Notes: generated by a model not told the origin, from the sequence alone. A DNA stretch of 64,000 nt from Escherichia coli (GCF_044324785.1 NZ_CP172127.1); one strand, 5' to 3'; positions 7,932-14,553 are shown, counted from the stretch's first letter. A program made the numbers and translations.

Positions 7932-9281
7932 TTATTTTTCCTGAAGACCGAGTTTTTTCTCCAGATAGTGGATGTTAGTGCCACCATGCTGGAAGTTCTC
8001 GTCATTCATGATGCGGATCTGCAGATCAACGTTGGTTTTGATACCGTCGATGATCAGCTCCTGCAGCGCATTCTTCATGCGGGCAATCGCCACGTCACGG
8101 TTTTCACCGTAGCAAATCAGCTTACCGATCATTGAGTCATAGTACGGCGGTACGGTGTAGCCCGCGTAGATATGAGACTCCCAACGCACGCCAAAACCGC
8201 CTGGTGCGTGGAAACGGGTGATTTTGCCCGGGCTTGGCAGGAAGGTGTTCGGATCTTCGGCGTTGATACGGCATTCCACCGCATGGCCGCGAACGTGAAC
8301 TTCTTCTTGCTTGATCGACAGCGGTTGACCGGCAGCGATACGCAGCTGTTCTTTGATCAGGTCAACGCCGGTGATCATTTCGGTAACCGGATGTTCTACC
8401 TGAATACGGGTGTTCATTTCGATGAAATAGAACTCGCCGTTTTCGAACAGGAACTCGAAAGTACCTGCGCCGCGATAGCCGATATCAACACACGCTTTAG
8501 CACAACGTTCGCCGATGTAGCGACGCAGTTCCGGAGTAATGCCCGGTGCTGGTGCTTCTTCGACCACTTTCTGGTGGCGGCGCTGCATGGAGCAGTCACG
8601 TTCCGCCAGATAGATAGCGTTGCCCTGACCGTCAGCCAGTACCTGAATCTCGACGTGGCGAGGATTTTCCAGGTATTTCTCCATGTAAACCATATCGTTG
8701 CTGAAAGCAGCTTTCGCTTCCGCACGGGTCATGGAGATGGATTGTGCCAGTTCAGCGTCGCCGCGCACTACGCGCATACCGCGACCGCCGCCGCCGCCGG
8801 AGGCTTTGATAATTACCGGATAACCAATGCGTTTAGCAATGGCGCGGTTTTTATCCATATCGTCGCCCAGCGGGCCGTCAGAACCCGGTACGCAAGGAAC
8901 GCCAGCTTTTTTCATCGCCGCGATTGCGGATACTTTGTCGCCCATCAGGCGAATGGTTTCTGCTTTCGGGCCAATGAAGATAAAGCCGGAGCGTTCAACC
9001 TGTTCAGCAAAGTTGGCGTTCTCGGAGAGGAAGCCGTAGCCCGGATGGATTGCTACTGCGCCGGTGATTTCAGCGGCGCTGATGATTGCCGGGATGTTCA
9101 GATAACTTTTTACTGACGGAGCAGGGCCGATACAGACCGTTTCATCTGCCAGTAATACGTGTTTTAAATCGCGATCCGCGCTGGAGTGCACAGCGACAGT
9201 CTTGATGCCCAATTCTTTACAGGCACGAAGAATACGCAATGCAATCTCGCCGCGGTTGGCAATAACAATTTTATCCAGCAT
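7932..9281 (-). CDS. accC: Biotin carboxylase subunit of acetyl-CoA carboxylase
   Basis: 449-aa protein from [16 protein letters not shown] (ORF track has a 13-codon N-terminal extension); GAGG RBS; sequence recognised as E. coli AccC. Confidence 0.95.
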
Positions 9282-9291
9282 GTTCGCCTCG

Positions 9292-9762
9292 TTACTCGAT
9301 GACGACCAGCGGCTCGTCAAATTCTACCGGTTGTCCACTTTCGACCAGAATTGCTTTCACGGTACCGGATTTGTCCGCTTCGATCTGGTTCATCATTTTC
9401 ATGGCTTCAACGATGCACAGGGTATCGCCCACGTTGACTTTCTGACCCACTTCGATGAACGCTTTTGCGTCCGGGCTTGGGGTGCGGTAGAAAGTACCAA
9501 CCATCGGGGAACGTACGATGTGACCACTGATTTCCGCTGCTGCTGGCGCTTCCATGGAAGGAACGGTCGCCGGAGCGGCTGCGTTAGATTGAGCTGGCTG
9601 CTGCATCATTGGTGCAGCGTAAGCTTGTTGCATCACAGGGAAACTTGCGGCAGGAGCTGCACGGCTAATGCGTACTGACTCTTCGCCTTCAGAAATTTCC
9701 AGTTCGGAGATGCCTGATTCTTCAACCAGCTCGATCAGTTTTTTAATCTTACGAATATCCAT
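9292..9762 (-). CDS. accB: Biotin carboxyl carrier protein
   Basis: 156-aa ORF with Ala/Pro-rich linker and biotinylation motif [10 protein letters not shown]; immediately upstream of accC. Confidence 0.95.
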
Positions 9763-10525
9763 GAGTGGGTTCCGTACTCTTTGTTTAGTGTGATTGTGAC
9801 AGGCGTTTCACCGCCGTCTGTAAAGCGTATGCCCCGACAGCTGTATGCATAGCGATAAATTCCAGCAGGCCGGGACGCCGGTCTATTTTGCCCCAGAGTG
9901 TCAATGTTAGACTTGACGGACATTGTGCAGCGATCTGCTGCTATCCTCCGGCAAAAAACAAAATATACCTTCGTTGCGCCAATGTCACCTTTTCCGCAGC
10001 GCAAAAACTGCGTCAGGGAGGACGAGGTCGCACATTATAACGATTTCGTAGCAATTGGCAGCTAAATACTGGTCTTATCAGGGAAGATAATCAACAGCTA
10101 ACATGTAAATAACCTTCAACACCGTGTAATTTGCAACAAGCCGCACAATTCACGAAATTAGCGCCATCATCGACGGAACTTCTTATAACGTAAGGCTAAA
10201 AGCTGTAAAGCCAGCCCTGCGAAGATGAGGGGCTGCAATGAGATAATCTTCACAGACCACAAATAATGTAGGGATGCCAGGATCGCGACAAGATCGACGA
10301 CATTACGCAGCGGTTGCTGGGGATTGCCCAATTTTCACTGCATCGTCTGGATAAATGTGAATGCTAAAGCACGCAAAATCAACCGCCTGACAATGCTCAG
10401 CATGAAATAGGTTTAACTGGTTAATTTGTAATCAAACAAAATCAGATTATTCCCCCCATTTTGCAGAAGGTAAACTGTTTTGTCAGGCGGCAGTACGGCT
10501 ATGTGATGCACTGCCGCGTGACAAT

Positions 10526-10554
10526 AAAAAAGCCGATTTGGTAGCAAAATCGGC
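10526..10554 (-). terminator. Rho-independent terminator after the 276-aa gene
   Basis: Stem GCCGAT(TTG)/(CAAA)ATCGGC followed on the minus strand by a T-run (plus-strand AAAAAA at 10526-10531); a second hairpin GCGGCAGT...ACTGCCGC lies at ~10487-10517. Confidence 0.5.
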
Positions 10555-10619
10555 TTCGGTGAGTTTGCAGCATTCATCACATACTCCGACAAGCTTTTTC
10601 AAGCATGACGGAGGTTGCG

Positions 10620-11450
10620 TTAATGCAAGGTTTCTACCCAGGGATAAAAGTGACCGTTACGGCGGATGAATATCTGTGTTGTCAGAGGATGGTCATCCTC
10701 ACGGAAGCATTGTTCTGTTAACTGTCGTAATGCGCTGAGATTTGCTGGCTGATCATTGTGGGTGAAAAACAGTTTTCCTCTGGAGGGAACTGTCACTAAC
10801 AGGTCGCCGCATTCAGGATCGGGTGATTGCACCCAAAGATCGTCAATGAGCATCAGACTGGGCTCATAAGTACCCCCTGCGGAGATAACGGCAACTTTTC
10901 CATCGTTTGCGCCGGTATCAACGATTTCAGCCGTAACTTCCGGCAATATTTGCTTCAAATTACTGATGGCTTGTTCGCGGTCAATGGTCACTTCGCAGCG
11001 CATCAGATAGCGCATGGTTTCGCTACCGTCTTCAGCAAACAGGATAATTAACTCATCGTTAAAGTCTTCCCAGGCAAAATCAAGCGAGGCGTTGAGGACC
11101 TCTGGATCAGACTCATACTGGCTAAGCTGTTGGCGAACGGTATCCAGCCAGGCTTTTTCTTTAATCACCGGGACAATACAGCGCCCGGTCGGCAGCATTT
11201 CTGCAAGCTGTTTCAGCATATCTGCAGCCACTTCTTCCAGCGGGTCTGGTGCGGCTTGATAACGTTTGTAAGCATCATCAAGGGTGATTTCCACCGTTTG
11301 GTGACCCGTATCAATGCGCATCAATTTATGGTCAGTCGAAATCATGACTTTCCAGTTTGGATGATGTTGTACAACTTCCTGACCAAGGTGTTCGACGAAA
11401 GCTGTCAGGCTAACCGCTTTTCCCGTTAACCGATTGAATAATGATTTCAA
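10620..11450 (-). CDS. Hypothetical protein, 276 aa, unknown function
   Basis: Long uninterrupted ORF; TTG start with GAGAGGG ~8 nt upstream, 37 bp downstream of acuI in the same orientation; own terminator; acidic, no predicted membrane segment; I cannot assign a family by recall. Confidence 0.6.
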   Translation of the reverse strand: MKSLFNRLTGKAVSLTAFVEHLGQEVVQHHPNWKVMISTDHKLMRIDTGHQTVEITLDDAYKRYQAAPDPLEEVAADMLKQLAEMLPTGRCIVPVIKEKAWLDTVRQQLSQYESDPEVLNASLDFAWEDFNDELIILFAEDGSETMRYLMRCEVTIDREQAISNLKQILPEVTAEIVDTGANDGKVAVISAGGTYEPSLMLIDDLWVQSPDPECGDLLVTVPSRGKLFFTHNDQPANLSALRQLTEQCFREDDHPLTTQIFIRRNGHFYPWVETLH

Positions 11451-11486
11451 AATGAGTTCCCTCTCTTATTAATCCTTGCTAAATGG

Positions 11487-12461
11487 TTAGTTAACCTTCA
11501 CCAGCGTGCGACCCTGGATCTGGTTATTAATGATGGCCTCGGCAAATTTCGGTGCCTCTGCCAGAGATATTTCTTTTGCCGCCTGGGTATAGAATGATTC
11601 CGGTAAATCGGCGACCAGTCGCTGCCAGGCTTGTGCGCGGCGTGCTGGTGGCGTCATCACTGAATCCACCCCCTGTAAACGGACATTACGCAGAATAAAT
11701 GGCATGACCGTGGTTGGCAGAGTAAAACCACCCGCCAGACCACAGGCCGCCACGCAGCCGCCGTAATTCATTTGCGCCAGCACTTTTGCCAGCACTTTGT
11801 CGCCAACGGTGTCAATTGCCCCAGCCCAGAGTTGTTTTTCCAGAGGACGGGATTCGGCAAACTCATCGCGAGGGAGAATACGGCTGGCACCTAAACTTTT
11901 CAGATATTCATGGGTACTTTCGCGACCGGAAACGGCAACGACCTGATAACCCAATTTATGCAGCAGCGCCACGGCGGTACTGCCGACGCCACCACTGGCA
12001 CCCGTTACGACAATCTCGCCGTCCTGCGGGCGAACACCGGCATCTTCCAGCGCCATCACACACAGCATGGCGGTAAAACCGGCAGTACCGATAATCATTG
12101 CTTTACGCGCGTCCAGCCCTTGCGGCATGGCAACCAGCCAGTCACCTTTCACTCGCGCCTGCTCCGCCAGCCCACCCCAGTGGTTTTCACCAACGCCCCA
12201 GCCAGTGAGTAATACCTCCTGACCGGCATGAAAACGCGGATCTTCGCTGGTGCGTACAGTTCCGGCAAAATCGATCCCAGGAATCATCGGAAAATTACGG
12301 ATGATTTTTCCCTTACCGGTAATTGCCAGCGCATCTTTGTAGTTCAGGCTCGACCAGTGAACATCAACCGTGACATCGCCCTCCGGCAGGCGACTTTCGT
12401 CCAGAGTCTGTACCGATGCGAGAGTTTTGCCGTCCTGCTGTTCTAAAAGTAACGCCTGCAT
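11487..12461 (-). CDS. acuI: Acrylyl-CoA reductase (zinc-type alcohol dehydrogenase family)
   Basis: 324-aa ORF recognised as E. coli YhdH/AcuI; divergent from csrD. Confidence 0.9.
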   Translation of the reverse strand: MQALLLEQQDGKTLASVQTLDESRLPEGDVTVDVHWSSLNYKDALAITGKGKIIRNFPMIPGIDFAGTVRTSEDPRFHAGQEVLLTGWGVGENHWGGLAEQARVKGDWLVAMPQGLDARKAMIIGTAGFTAMLCVMALEDAGVRPQDGEIVVTGASGGVGSTAVALLHKLGYQVVAVSGRESTHEYLKSLGASRILPRDEFAESRPLEKQLWAGAIDTVGDKVLAKVLAQMNYGGCVAACGLAGGFTLPTTVMPFILRNVRLQGVDSVMTPPARRAQAWQRLVADLPESFYTQAAKEISLAEAPKFAEAIINNQIQGRTLVKVN

Positions 12462-12612
12462 AAGTGGTCCTCATGTGCATGATGGATTGGAAAATAATTT
12501 CTGAAGACTATACTCGCTAATGGAAAAGCAAAGCCGATGAAGCGCAATAAATTGCGAGATAAATCTGATTTGCTAGTATGCCCGCTTCCTCACTATCGGA
12601 GTTAACACAAGG

Positions 12613-14553
12613 ATGAGATTAACGACGAAATTTTCGGCCTTTGTTACGCTGCTCACCGGGTTAACAATTTTTGTGACTTTGTTGGGCTGTTCGCTAAGTT
12701 TCTACAACGCCATTCAGTATAAGTTTAGTCATCGCGTTCAGGCGGTGGCGACGGCGATTGATACCCACCTTGTGTCGAATGACTTCAGCGCATTAAGGCC
12801 ACAAATTACCGAATTAATGATGTCAGCAGATATCGTTCGTGTAGACCTGCTGCATGGTGATAAACAGGTTTATACCCTCGCCAGAAATGGTAGTTATCGT
12901 CCGGTTGGCACCAGCGATCTGTTTCGCGAACTGAGCGTTCCGTTGATAAAGCATCCGGGGATGTCGCTGCGTCTGGTTTATCAGGATCCGATGGGCAACT
13001 ATTTCCATTCGTTGATGACCACCGCGCCGCTCACGGGGGCGATTGGCTTTATCATTCTTATGCTCTTCCTGGCGGTACGCTGGTTACAACGGCAACTTGC
13101 CGGGCAAGAATTGCTGGAAACCCGGGCTACTCGTATCTTAAACGGTGAGCGTGGCTCTAATGTGTTGGGAACCATCTATGAATGGCCGCCCAGAACCAGC
13201 AGTGCGCTGGATACGCTGCTTCGTGAAATTCAGAACGCACGCGAACAACACAGCCGTCTTGATACGCTGATCCGCTCTTATGCCGCCCAGGACATGAAAA
13301 CCGGCCTCAATAACCGACTCTTCTTCGATAATCAGTTAGCAACGTTACTGGAAGATCAGGAGAAAGTAGGTACCCACGGGATCGTGATGATGATTCGTCT
13401 ACCGGATTTCAATATGTTGAGCGATACCTGGGGGCACAGCCAGGTAGAAGAACAGTTCTTCACTCTGACGAATCTGCTGTCGACATTTATGATGCGCTAC
13501 CCTGGCGCACTGCTGGCGCGTTACCACCGCAGTGATTTTGCTGCGCTGTTGCCCCACCGGACGTTAAAAGAGGCTGAGAGCATAGCCAGTCAGTTAATCA
13601 AAGCCGTCGATACCTTGCCGAACAATAAAATGCTCGATCGCGACGATATGATCCACATTGGTATCTGTGCCTGGCGTAGTGGTCAGGATACCGAGCAGGT
13701 AATGGAACATGCAGAGTCTGCCACGCGTAATGCGGGATTGCAGGGCGGCAATAGCTGGGCTATTTACGATGACTCGTTGCCTGAAAAAGGACGCGGTAAT
13801 GTTCGCTGGCGTACGCTTATCGAGCAAATGCTGAGTCGCGGCGGCCCGCGCCTTTATCAAAAACCGGCGGTTACTCGCGAAGGTCAGGTTCATCATCGCG
13901 AACTCATGTGCCGCATCTTCGATGGTAACGAAGAGGTTAGCTCGGCGGAGTATATGCCGATGGTCTTGCAGTTTGGCTTATCGGAAGAGTATGACCGCCT
14001 GCAAATCAGCCGTCTGATTCCACTATTGCGTTACTGGCCGGAGGAAAATCTGGCGATTCAGGTTACCGTTGAGTCGCTGATTCGCCCGCGTTTTCAGCGT
14101 TGGCTGCGAGATACGTTAATGCAATGTGAAAGATCGCAACGAAAACGCATAATTATTGAACTTGCAGAGGCCGATGTAGGTCAACATATCAGTCGTTTAC
14201 AACCTGTTATTCGTTTAGTGAATGCTTTAGGGGTACGGGTAGCCGTCAACCAGGCTGGTTTGACGCTGGTAAGCACCAGTTGGATCAAAGAACTTAATGT
14301 TGAGTTACTCAAGCTCCATCCGGGGCTGGTCAGAAACATTGAGAAGCGAACGGAGAACCAGCTGCTGGTTCAAAGCCTGGTGGAAGCCTGCTCCGGGACC
14401 AGCACCCAGGTTTACGCCACCGGCGTGCGTTCGCGAAGCGAGTGGCAGACCCTGATTCAGCGCGGTGTTACAGGTGGGCAAGGGGATTTTTTCGCGTCCT
14501 CACAGCCACTTGATACTAACGTGAAAAAATATTCACAAAGATACTCGGTTTAA
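12613..14553 (+). CDS. csrD: RNase E specificity factor with degenerate GGDEF/EAL domains
   Basis: 646-aa ORF with N-terminal membrane segments; recognised as CsrD (YhdA). Confidence 0.9.
   Translation: MRLTTKFSAFVTLLTGLTIFVTLLGCSLSFYNAIQYKFSHRVQAVATAIDTHLVSNDFSALRPQITELMMSADIVRVDLLHGDKQVYTLARNGSYRPVGTSDLFRELSVPLIKHPGMSLRLVYQDPMGNYFHSLMTTAPLTGAIGFIILMLFLAVRWLQRQLAGQELLETRATRILNGERGSNVLGTIYEWPPRTSSALDTLLREIQNAREQHSRLDTLIRSYAAQDMKTGLNNRLFFDNQLATLLEDQEKVGTHGIVMMIRLPDFNMLSDTWGHSQVEEQFFTLTNLLSTFMMRYPGALLARYHRSDFAALLPHRTLKEAESIASQLIKAVDTLPNNKMLDRDDMIHIGICAWRSGQDTEQVMEHAESATRNAGLQGGNSWAIYDDSLPEKGRGNVRWRTLIEQMLSRGGPRLYQKPAVTREGQVHHRELMCRIFDGNEEVSSAEYMPMVLQFGLSEEYDRLQISRLIPLLRYWPEENLAIQVTVESLIRPRFQRWLRDTLMQCERSQRKRIIIELAEADVGQHISRLQPVIRLVNALGVRVAVNQAGLTLVSTSWIKELNVELLKLHPGLVRNIEKRTENQLLVQSLVEACSGTSTQVYATGVRSRSEWQTLIQRGVTGGQGDFFASSQPLDTNVKKYSQRYSV

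What the first reader, a model, noticed from the sequence alone, without database searches (positions are those of the whole stretch)
10487..11486. Unassigned 276-aa gene co-oriented with acuI, upstream of accB
A clean 831-bp ORF starts (TTG, GAGAGGG RBS) 37 bp after the acuI stop, suggesting co-transcription, and is followed by a hairpin plus T-run and a second hairpin before the accB control region. From memory, K-12 has only intergenic DNA and the accB promoter between acuI and accB. The protein is acidic and soluble-looking, and I cannot place it in a family. Its position could also affect the long accBC leader region.
Basis: partly seen in the sequence, partly recalled or inferred. Interest (0 to 1): 0.5.

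Follow-up and report, generated by a model that had tools for sequence, protein, structure and literature searches.

The report
Intact yrdF: a DUF1444-family gene
This is a real protein-coding gene of the widespread, poorly understood DUF1444/YtpQ family; about one complete E. coli genome in eight carries it between acuI and accB, K-12 keeps only its first 48 codons (annotated pseudogene yrdF), and so it is an ordinary gene-decay polymorphism, not a new kind of gene.

Summary
Window 10620-11450 (minus strand) is a clean 276-codon ORF with a TTG start and a GAGAGGG ribosome-binding site. It begins 36 nt after the acuI stop and is followed by an intrinsic terminator and a second strong hairpin.

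The protein can be placed in a family. It is a divergent member of Pfam DUF1444 (UPF0354, YtpQ/CgoN), shown by profile search, profile-profile alignment (99.1%), a confident AlphaFold model that matches more than 1,200 DUF1444 models, and retention of nearly all family-conserved residues. dN/dS of 0.11-0.22 shows purifying selection.

It is not unknown. RefSeq calls it "hypothetical" or "DUF1444 domain-containing protein". K-12 MG1655 annotates its first 143 nt as pseudogene yrdF, followed by pseudogene yrdE, an msrQ relic.

Salmonella and Klebsiella aerogenes have acuI-msrP-msrQ-accB here. An unidentified enteric contig has acuI-DUF1444-msrP. The window allele (666 of 5,426 genomes, and E. 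albertii) and the K-12 allele are two independent deletions of that arrangement.

The accB promoter and leader are identical in both alleles. Biochemical function is inferred only: the one characterised relative is a slow FAD-dependent coproporphyrinogen III oxidase, and E. coli lacks that pathway. Interest is low.

The parts
10620..11450 (-). 276-codon gene for a DUF1444/UPF0354-family protein; the intact form of K-12 pseudogene yrdF
   Evidence: ORF. The profile finds 1,279 relatives, and 55 of 60 aligned relatives hit PF07285. hhalign against Firmicutes YtpQ gives 99.1%. AF2 pLDDT 90.2, and Foldseek hits are DUF1444 models. dN/dS 0.11-0.22. K-12 yrdF aligns to the first 143 nt.
11459..11465 (-). 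Ribosome-binding site GAGAGGG, 8 nt upstream of the TTG start
   Evidence: Read directly from the sequence. Conserved in K-12, 118UI and E. albertii.
11487..12461 (-). acuI (yhdH), the upstream co-oriented gene; its stop lies 36 nt before the TTG
   Evidence: ORF; RefSeq annotation of the matching region.
11308..11450 (-). The part of the gene (codons 1-48) that K-12-type genomes retain as pseudogene yrdF
   Evidence: Alignments. The K-12 remnant translates to 48 native codons plus 6 new codons and a stop.
10529..10557 (-). Intrinsic-terminator-like hairpin (11 pairs) followed by a T-run; present only in the gene-bearing allele
   Evidence: No terminator-like site in the K-12 interval.
10480..10524 (-). 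Second strong hairpin (15-nt arms, 93% complementary) at or near the msrP/msrQ deletion junction
   Evidence: Its loop carries an 8-bp indel relative to strain 118UI.
10516..10563 (-). Relic of the 5' end of msrP (LTEADFATKSAFLLSR against Salmonella MsrP 7-22); the terminator hairpin is built from it
   Evidence: tblastn gives 9/16 identities, which is weak on its own. It is supported by DNA homology to L003, which continues into a genuine msrP N-terminus with a Tat signal.
10161..10469 (-). Pseudogene relic of msrQ (yedZ paralogue; K-12 yrdE), roughly codons 97-199, with two in-frame stops
   Evidence: RefSeq pseudo-CDS; translation; NCBIfam MsrQ E = 1e-13; tblastn with Salmonella MsrQ 57% identity, E = 2e-33.
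10034..10061 (-). Promoter-like site (CTGCCA-16-TATAAT) about 270 nt upstream of accB, unchanged between alleles
   Evidence: That this is the accBC promoter rests on my memory of the long accBC leader, not on a test here.
9292..9762 (-). accB, the downstream gene

Best explanation
The ORF is the intact allele of the gene that K-12 annotates as pseudogene yrdF. It encodes a 31-kDa, acidic, cytoplasmic protein of the three-domain DUF1444/UPF0354 (YtpQ/CgoN) family.

Shown: it is a real gene under purifying selection. It belongs to a divergent, mostly Gram-negative branch of DUF1444 and keeps nearly all family-wide conserved residues. It sits 36 nt behind acuI with its own ribosome-binding site, no promoter-like site in between, and a terminator after it.

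Also shown: it is an accessory gene, intact in about 12% of complete E. coli genomes and in E. albertii. The other 88% carry a different deletion allele that keeps only codons 1-48.

Inferred: it is transcribed with acuI and terminated at the hairpin, which is made from an msrP relic. It entered an ancestral acuI-msrP-msrQ-accB locus between acuI and msrP. Two independent deletions followed. One removed msrP to mid-msrQ and spared the gene (the window type). The other ran from codon 49 of the gene to msrQ codon ~66-69 (the K-12 type).

Biochemistry is inferred only. By homology with P. megaterium YtpQ/CgoN, it most likely binds a flavin and passes electrons from a reduced small molecule (a porphyrinogen-like substrate) to quinone or oxygen, or otherwise supports haem/iron/oxidative-stress homeostasis. 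I put about 0.25 on a porphyrinogen-oxidising activity specifically. The 0.8 confidence refers to the identity, family and locus history, not to the biochemistry.
For: Gene reality: (dN/dS 0.11-0.22, including 0.13 at dS about 1.0).

Family:
- Pfam DUF1444 spans residues 29-270 at i-E 0.0094 for the single sequence.
- The profile of close homologues finds 1,279 representatives at E<=1e-3 and 510 at E<=1e-10.
- 55 of 60 aligned relatives hit PF07285.
- hhalign against Firmicutes YtpQ gives probability 99.1%, E = 9.6e-19, over 255 columns.
- The AF2 model has pLDDT 90.2, and Foldseek hits are almost all 'DUF1444 family protein'.
- 12 of the 13 positions where both branches conserve the same residue are kept, including P94, A139, D141, A161, N164, Y195, S198, G215, P222 and F261.

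Transcription signals.

Distribution: 666-669 of 5,426 genomes. E. albertii has the same synteny at 93% aa identity.

K-12 pseudogenes yrdF and yrdE.

Locus history:
- Salmonella and K. aerogenes have acuI-msrP-msrQ-accB.
- L003 has acuI-ORF-msrP.
- The K-12 allele holds about 30 msrQ codons (69-98, 70% aa identity to Salmonella) that the window allele lacks.

Biochemical precedent: PMC10965808 and PMC3176815.
Against: - Nothing here shows expression, a cofactor or an activity.
- The only enzymology in the family is a very slow reaction (kcat 0.63 per min). It comes from a Firmicutes orthologue sharing about 16-22% identity with this branch.
- S. aureus genetics found only a minimal contribution of its DUF1444 protein to haem synthesis.
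- From established knowledge, not tested here: E. coli makes haem by the protoporphyrin route, so coproporphyrin III would be a dead end.
- The gene has been lost from 88% of E. coli genomes, and the E. albertii type-strain copy has a C-terminal frameshift. It is therefore dispensable.
- The direction of the first event (insertion between acuI and msrP, or loss from Salmonella and Klebsiella) is not resolved.
Confidence: 0.8

Rival explanations
1. It is a true functional orthologue of CgoN. It would be an oxygen-independent, FAD-dependent coproporphyrinogen III oxidase producing coproporphyrin III in E. coli.
For: It is homologous to YtpQ/CgoN over the whole length and has the same three-domain fold family. 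The family-conserved residues are retained. CgoN activity has been shown in vitro for the P. megaterium protein.
Against: - It scores 22.9 bits against the NCBIfam YtpQ equivalog PRK13668, whose cut-off is 221.
- It shares 16-22% identity with Firmicutes YtpQ.
- Branch-specific substitutions occur at positions invariant in YtpQ: K97/R, N131/T, G192-G193/N-D, L199/R, R224/Q.
- No haem genes lie nearby.
- The branch is spread through Proteobacteria and Bacteroidota. From general knowledge, these do not use the coproporphyrin-dependent pathway.
- The S. aureus family member contributes little to haem synthesis.
Confidence: 0.1
2. It is a relic on its way out: an ORF that is still open but no longer does anything useful. 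It would be kept in a minority of lineages only because the inactivating deletion has not reached them.
For: It is absent from 88% of complete E. coli genomes. The neighbouring msrP and msrQ are already decayed. The E. albertii type strain has a frameshifted C-terminus. One very close pair of alleles gives dN/dS 0.86, but on only 4 substitutions.
Against: dN/dS is 0.11-0.22 over all informative comparisons, including about 180 substitutions against the 77% homologue. Those comparisons contain no indels or stops. Nearly all family-conserved residues are retained. The ribosome-binding site and start codon are conserved.
Confidence: 0.1
3. It is, or was, a cytoplasmic partner of the MsrPQ methionine-sulfoxide-repair system next to which it sat. 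For example, it could be a flavoprotein feeding electrons to, or helping haem-load, the haem-b membrane subunit MsrQ.
For: In L003 the gene lies directly upstream of msrP and is co-oriented with it. Relics of msrP and msrQ follow it in the window. The family has links to flavin, haem/iron and oxidative stress in Firmicutes.
Against: None of the other family contexts examined has msrPQ nearby. Salmonella and K. aerogenes have msrPQ at this locus without the gene. The gene stayed under purifying selection after the adjacent msrPQ copy was destroyed.
Confidence: 0.05
4. It is cargo of a mobile element or an anti-phage defence gene inserted next to acuI.
For: The 62%-identical homologues lie in a different context, with KfrA_N-, Aca2/YdiL- and ResIII-like genes. 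The gene's GC content is 47.8%, against 55.3% for acuI. Its presence in E. coli is patchy.
Against: There are no PADLOC or PHROG matches. There are no phage hits, and the only 'plasmid' hits are on records of 0.35-4.9 Mb that carry this same chromosomal locus. The site is the same, single-copy chromosomal site in every carrier and in E. albertii. No integrase, repeats or other cargo accompany it. Its absence in K-12 is a deletion that leaves 48 codons behind, not an empty site.
Confidence: 0.02

Closest known systems
E. coli K-12 pseudogene yrdF (b4697), with its neighbour yrdE (b4646)
   Same: Same locus, same ribosome-binding site and TTG start. The first 143 nt are about 98% identical. yrdE corresponds to the msrQ relic downstream of the ORF.
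   Different: K-12 keeps only codons 1-48, fused to msrQ codon ~66-69. The window has the full 276 codons, an msrP 5' relic, and a shorter msrQ relic that starts near codon 97.
YtpQ/CgoN of Priestia megaterium and Bacillus subtilis (Pfam DUF1444, UPF0354; NCBIfam PRK13668)
   Same: Homologous over essentially the full length (hhalign 99.1%, 255 columns). Similar size (about 270 aa), cytoplasmic, three alpha/beta domains with no solved structural relative. Shared motifs are around P94, D141, A161/N164, Y195/S198 and P222.
   Different: Only 16-22% identity and far below the equivalog cut-off. The host lacks the coproporphyrin-dependent haem pathway (general knowledge). It is not in a ytpPQR-like, Spx-controlled operon and instead lies behind acuI.
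Gram-negative 'DUF1444 family proteins' (e.g. Leminorella richardii A0A2X4XCG3, Sideroxydans lithotrophicus D5CQW2, a Xanthobacteraceae MAG protein)
   Same: These are the nearest relatives outside Escherichia, at 27-36% identity. They have the same length and predicted fold, and the same branch-specific residues: K97, N131, G192-G193, W206, R224.
   Different: All are uncharacterised. Their genomic contexts differ and show no shared neighbour. The Escherichia clade replaces the common 'RD' after P222 with 'RG'.
Staphylococcus aureus NWMN_1636 (DUF1444)
   Same: Same Pfam family. It is dispensable, and its mutant has a growth defect of unknown cause.
   Different: It belongs to the Firmicutes branch. 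Genetics there argue against a major role in haem synthesis. Nothing comparable has been tested for the E. coli protein.

Membership tests
Pfam DUF1444 (PF07285) / UPF0354 | Significant match to the family profile over most of its length | tested here: met
   The single sequence is marginal: i-E 0.0094, residues 29-270 against model positions 15-254 of 264. Transitive evidence is strong. A profile of the close homologues retrieves 1,279 representatives. Of 60 aligned, 55 hit PF07285 at E<=1e-3, the best at 1.3e-19. hhalign against a Firmicutes YtpQ alignment gives probability 99.1%, E = 9.6e-19.
Pfam DUF1444 (PF07285) / UPF0354 | Family fold: three alpha/beta domains with no solved homologue | tested here: met
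Pfam DUF1444 (PF07285) / UPF0354 | Retention of residues conserved across both the Gram-negative and the Firmicutes branches | tested here: met
   12 of the 13 positions where both branches conserve the same residue are identical in the window protein: L57, I92, P94, A139, D141, A161, N164, Y195, S198, L201, G215, P222... The one difference is conservative, Y138F.
YtpQ equivalog (NCBIfam NF010189 / PRK13668) | Score at or above the curated cut-off of 221 bits | tested here: not met
   22.9 bits, E = 5.5e-5. The protein is related to YtpQ but is not an equivalog.
CgoN (oxygen-independent coproporphyrinogen III oxidase) | FAD cofactor and oxidation of coproporphyrinogen III with a quinone acceptor | not testable with these tools
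   These are defined biochemically in PMC10965808. No cofactor-binding motif is known for the family.
CgoN (oxygen-independent coproporphyrinogen III oxidase) | Association with coproporphyrin-dependent haem genes (cgoX, cpfC, chdC), the basis on which ytpQ was picked out | tested here: not met
   The neighbours are csrD, acuI, msrP/msrQ relics and accBC. No haem genes appear in any related context inspected. That E. coli as a whole lacks this pathway is established knowledge and was not tested here.
Known anti-phage defence or phage protein families | Match to a PADLOC or PHROG model | tested here: not met
   PADLOC returns no families. PHROG matches are only at E>=0.14. No tblastn hit in 50,697 phage records.

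The most novel reading that the evidence does not exclude
The large Gram-negative branch of DUF1444, to which this protein belongs, has a function different from coproporphyrinogen oxidation, because its hosts do not use that pathway. One candidate is a cytoplasmic flavoprotein that originally served the adjacent haem-b/molybdoenzyme repair system MsrPQ, or an alternative porphyrinogen/quinone oxidoreductase. If so, E. coli's natural carriers and natural deletion strains would be a ready genetic system for finding that function.
Probability: 0.07. Interest if true: 0.45.

Novelty: already known. Interest (0 to 1): 0.17.

Why it matters
It matters mainly as a clean-up. The 'unassigned gene' is the intact form of a catalogued K-12 pseudogene (yrdF) and belongs to a catalogued family (DUF1444).

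The acuI-accB 'intergenic' region of E. coli consists of the remains of three genes: yrdF, msrP and msrQ. These were removed by two different deletions.

There is modest practical value. DUF1444 is a large family (more than 1,200 clusters at 50% identity) with one contested biochemical assignment (CgoN). E. coli offers isogenic-like natural carriers and non-carriers in which the Gram-negative branch could be tested.

The gene-bearing allele also places a terminator between acuI and accBC that K-12 lacks. This could slightly alter read-through into the accBC operon.

Tried and rejected
- Sequence search of PDB chains with the family profile found nothing below E = 0.76.
- PADLOC and PHROGs gave no meaningful hits.
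- tblastn against phages found nothing. The four plasmid-collection hits lie on records of 0.35-4.9 Mb that carry this same chromosomal locus.
- Rfam at E<=1 over 9200-12700 gave only two sub-threshold chance-level hits.
- The search for related loci with the 60-sequence alignment failed because no block was conserved enough. With the close-homologue alignment it found only E. albertii among 100,044 species representatives.
- Gene-neighbourhood inference for function failed. Contexts of distant relatives share nothing: a two-component system with rsmI/trmD, luciferase-like and cytochrome c genes, metF/ydjM, and KfrA/Aca2.
- I first read the 100 nt specific to the K-12 allele as unrelated filler or REP-like sequence. 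That was wrong. It is msrQ codons 69-98.
- The literature search for the accBC leader returned nothing directly usable.

Full report
**Observation.** The window holds a 276-codon ORF on the minus strand at 10620..11450 with a TTG start. Read from the sequence, the minus strand upstream is AATAAGAGAGGGAACTCATT followed by TTG. The GAGAGGG ribosome-binding site therefore sits 8 nt from the start, and the spacer to the stop of acuI (11487..12461) is 36 nt.

Downstream lie an intrinsic-terminator-like hairpin (10557..10529, 11 pairs, T-run) and a second hairpin with 15-nt arms (10480-10524). The 161-nt tail folds far better than shuffles (z = -7.0). The product is acidic (pI 4.73) and has no hydrophobic segment.

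**Is it a gene?** Yes.
- Homologues of 98%, 77% and 62% identity align without internal indels.
- Nei-Gojobori dN/dS is 0.11-0.22 between the window allele, four other E. coli alleles, E. albertii and the 77% homologue. The last comparison has dS about 1.0 and dN/dS 0.13. The neighbouring acuI gives 0.03-0.09.
- The N-terminal 35 residues, which some annotations drop by starting at an internal ATG (241-aa P0002), are conserved and modelled as a confident helix. The TTG start is therefore right.

**What family?** A single-sequence Pfam scan gives only a marginal full-length match to DUF1444 (i-E 0.0094). NCBIfam gives 22.9 bits to the YtpQ equivalog, against a cut-off of 221. Word-indexed search finds just 11 close relatives. 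The stronger evidence is as follows.
- An exhaustive HMM search with a profile of the close homologues finds 1,279 cluster representatives at E<=1e-3 and 510 at E<=1e-10. Most are 270-300 aa and about 30% identical.
- Of 60 aligned, 55 hit PF07285 on their own.
- Sources name them 'YtpQ (UPF0354 family)' or 'DUF1444 family protein'.
- An AlphaFold2 model built on this alignment is confident (pLDDT 90.2).
- Foldseek against AFDB50 returns 1,223 hits at E<=1e-3, essentially all DUF1444 proteins. The nearest outside E. coli is Leminorella richardii at 36%.
- I recovered genuine Firmicutes YtpQ sequences and aligned them. Profile-profile comparison with the Gram-negative set gives 99.1% probability, E = 9.6e-19, over 255 columns at 16% identity.
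- In a merged alignment the window protein keeps 12 of the 13 positions where both branches conserve the same residue, including P94, A139, D141, A161, N164, Y195, S198, G215, P222 and F261. It carries the Gram-negative-branch residues elsewhere.

It is therefore a bona fide but divergent DUF1444 protein, and not a YtpQ equivalog.

**What is known of the family?**
- B. subtilis ytpQ lies in the Spx-activated ytpPQR operon. Its loss derepresses the Fur and PerR regulons and raises oxidative protein damage (PMC3176815).
- P. megaterium YtpQ was named CgoN. It is monomeric, contains FAD, and oxidises coproporphyrinogen III to coproporphyrin III without oxygen, using menadione as acceptor. The reaction is very slow, with kcat 0.63 per min (PMC10965808).
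- In S. aureus the DUF1444 protein contributes at most minimally to haem synthesis, and the authors consider its function still unknown (PMC6620371).
- From established knowledge, E. coli makes haem by the protoporphyrin-dependent route. The branch to which this protein belongs is spread across Proteobacteria and Bacteroidota. A coproporphyrin-specific role is thus unlikely to be the general function.

My committed guess is a flavin-dependent electron-transfer enzyme acting on a porphyrinogen-like or other reduced small molecule, or a factor in haem/iron/oxidative-stress homeostasis. This is inference, at roughly 0.25 for porphyrinogen oxidation.

**Distribution and prior annotation.**
- Megablast against 5,426 complete E. 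coli genomes finds the acuI-accB interval in all but one. Only 666 hold the full-length version. The gene-specific part is found in 669, always once and always chromosomal.
- Carriers include SMS-3-5, O26, O103, O111:H8 and O145:H28 strains. K-12, BL21, C and O157:H7 lack it.
- RefSeq calls it 'hypothetical protein' (WP_000838295.1 and others). Newer annotations call it 'DUF1444 domain-containing protein'.
- In MG1655 the interval carries two annotated pseudogenes, yrdF (b4697, 143 nt) and yrdE (b4646, 394 nt).
- yrdF begins at the same TTG and is the first 48 codons of this ORF. The literature treats both as pseudogenes (PMC7648144).
- Among 100,044 GTDB species representatives, only E. albertii has a close homologue. 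It is 93% identical in the same synteny, with a frameshifted C-terminus in the type strain.

**Locus history.** Salmonella Senftenberg has csrD / acuI-msrP-msrQ-accB-accC. Klebsiella aerogenes has the same order plus aroQ. Neither has a DUF1444 gene. A metagenome-derived enteric contig (L003; 81% nt identity to the window over acuI and the ORF) has acuI, the ORF (77% aa) and then the Tat-signal N-terminus of MsrP.

In the window the ORF is followed by two relics.
- A short relic of the msrP 5' end: LTEADFATKSAFLLSR against Salmonella MsrP 7-22. The terminator hairpin is made of it.
- An msrQ relic covering about codons 97-199, with two in-frame stops (57% identity, E = 2e-33; NCBIfam MsrQ E = 1e-13).

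In the K-12 allele, the 100 nt that replace the gene's 3' part are not filler. They are msrQ codons 69-98, 70% identical to Salmonella MsrQ. DNA homology to Salmonella runs from msrQ codon ~67 to accB.

The K-12 allele thus holds msrQ sequence that the window allele lacks, and the window allele holds gene and msrP sequence that K-12 lacks. Neither derives from the other. Both are independent deletions of an acuI-DUF1444-msrP-msrQ-accB ancestor. Whether the gene was inserted between acuI and msrP, or lost from Salmonella and Klebsiella, is unresolved. Its lower GC (47.8% against 55.3% for acuI) and the different, plasmid-like context of the 62% homologues (KfrA_N, Aca2) suggest acquisition.

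**Effect on accBC.** From accB to window 10459 the two alleles are collinear and about 98% identical. The same promoter-like site (CTGCCA-16-TATAAT, about 270 nt upstream of accB) is present in both. The accBC control region is therefore not altered. The one difference is that the simple scan finds a terminator only in the gene-bearing allele and none in the K-12 interval. Read-through from acuI could therefore differ. This is an inference, not a result.

**Verdict.** It is neither unplaceable nor unknown. It is intact yrdF, a DUF1444-family accessory gene at a locus undergoing decay. Novelty is low. The residual interest is that DUF1444 function in Gram-negative bacteria remains open, and E. 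coli provides natural carriers and natural knock-outs.

Noticed in passing
window 10161-10469 (-) and 10516-10563 (-): The DNA between the ORF and the accB promoter consists of relics of msrQ (about codons 97-199, two in-frame stops) and of the first ~20 codons of msrP. Salmonella and K. aerogenes have intact msrPQ at this position. The 'intrinsic terminator' hairpin is formed from the msrP relic.
   Followed up: yes
L020 (MG1655) 1996-2532; L002 3735-3870: The K-12 allele retains about 30 msrQ codons (69-98) that the window allele lacks. The two alleles are therefore independent deletions of a common ancestor, and neither derives from the other. A 9-mer, ATTGATACG, occurs both at codons 46-48 of the gene and in msrQ just past the K-12 junction. 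Its relevance to the deletion is unclear.
   Followed up: partly
L020 (MG1655) 1996-2160: In K-12 the yrdF remnant keeps its ribosome-binding site and TTG start and remains open for 54 codons (48 native plus PLNSYY and a stop). It could be translated as a small protein. I did not look for ribosome-profiling evidence.
   Followed up: no
L004 1-5501 and L005: The 62%-identical homologues (P0005, P0007) are not next to acuI. They lie among KfrA_N-, Aca2/YdiL-, DUF7352- and ResIII-like genes, a plasmid- or mobile-element-like context. This suggests the gene family moves horizontally among enteric bacteria.
   Followed up: partly
window 9000-13000: The window's best match among 5,426 complete E. 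coli genomes is only 98.7% identical over this 4-kb core-genome stretch. Its source lineage is therefore not closely represented in that collection.
   Followed up: no
window 10495-10509 (hairpin loop): Strain 118UI has an extra 8 bp (TCAGAATT on the plus strand) in the loop of the second hairpin relative to the window. The stem is largely preserved.
   Followed up: no
database records for the same protein (P0006; UniProt A0A376NW46): Some public records name this protein 'Initiation of DNA replication'. Nothing in sequence, fold or context supports this, so it looks like an annotation artefact. Other records start it at an internal ATG, giving 241 aa (P0002).
   Followed up: partly
L006 8001-8831 (E. 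albertii NBRC 107761): The E. albertii type-strain copy has a frameshift five codons before the normal end (…RRNGHFFPG*), giving a 271-aa product. Otherwise it is 93% identical in identical synteny.
   Followed up: partly
L012 2268-3112: A more distant enteric-type homologue (P0014) lies between metF and ydjM. It is split into 236-aa and 44-aa ORFs, suggesting another decaying copy in a different locus.
   Followed up: no
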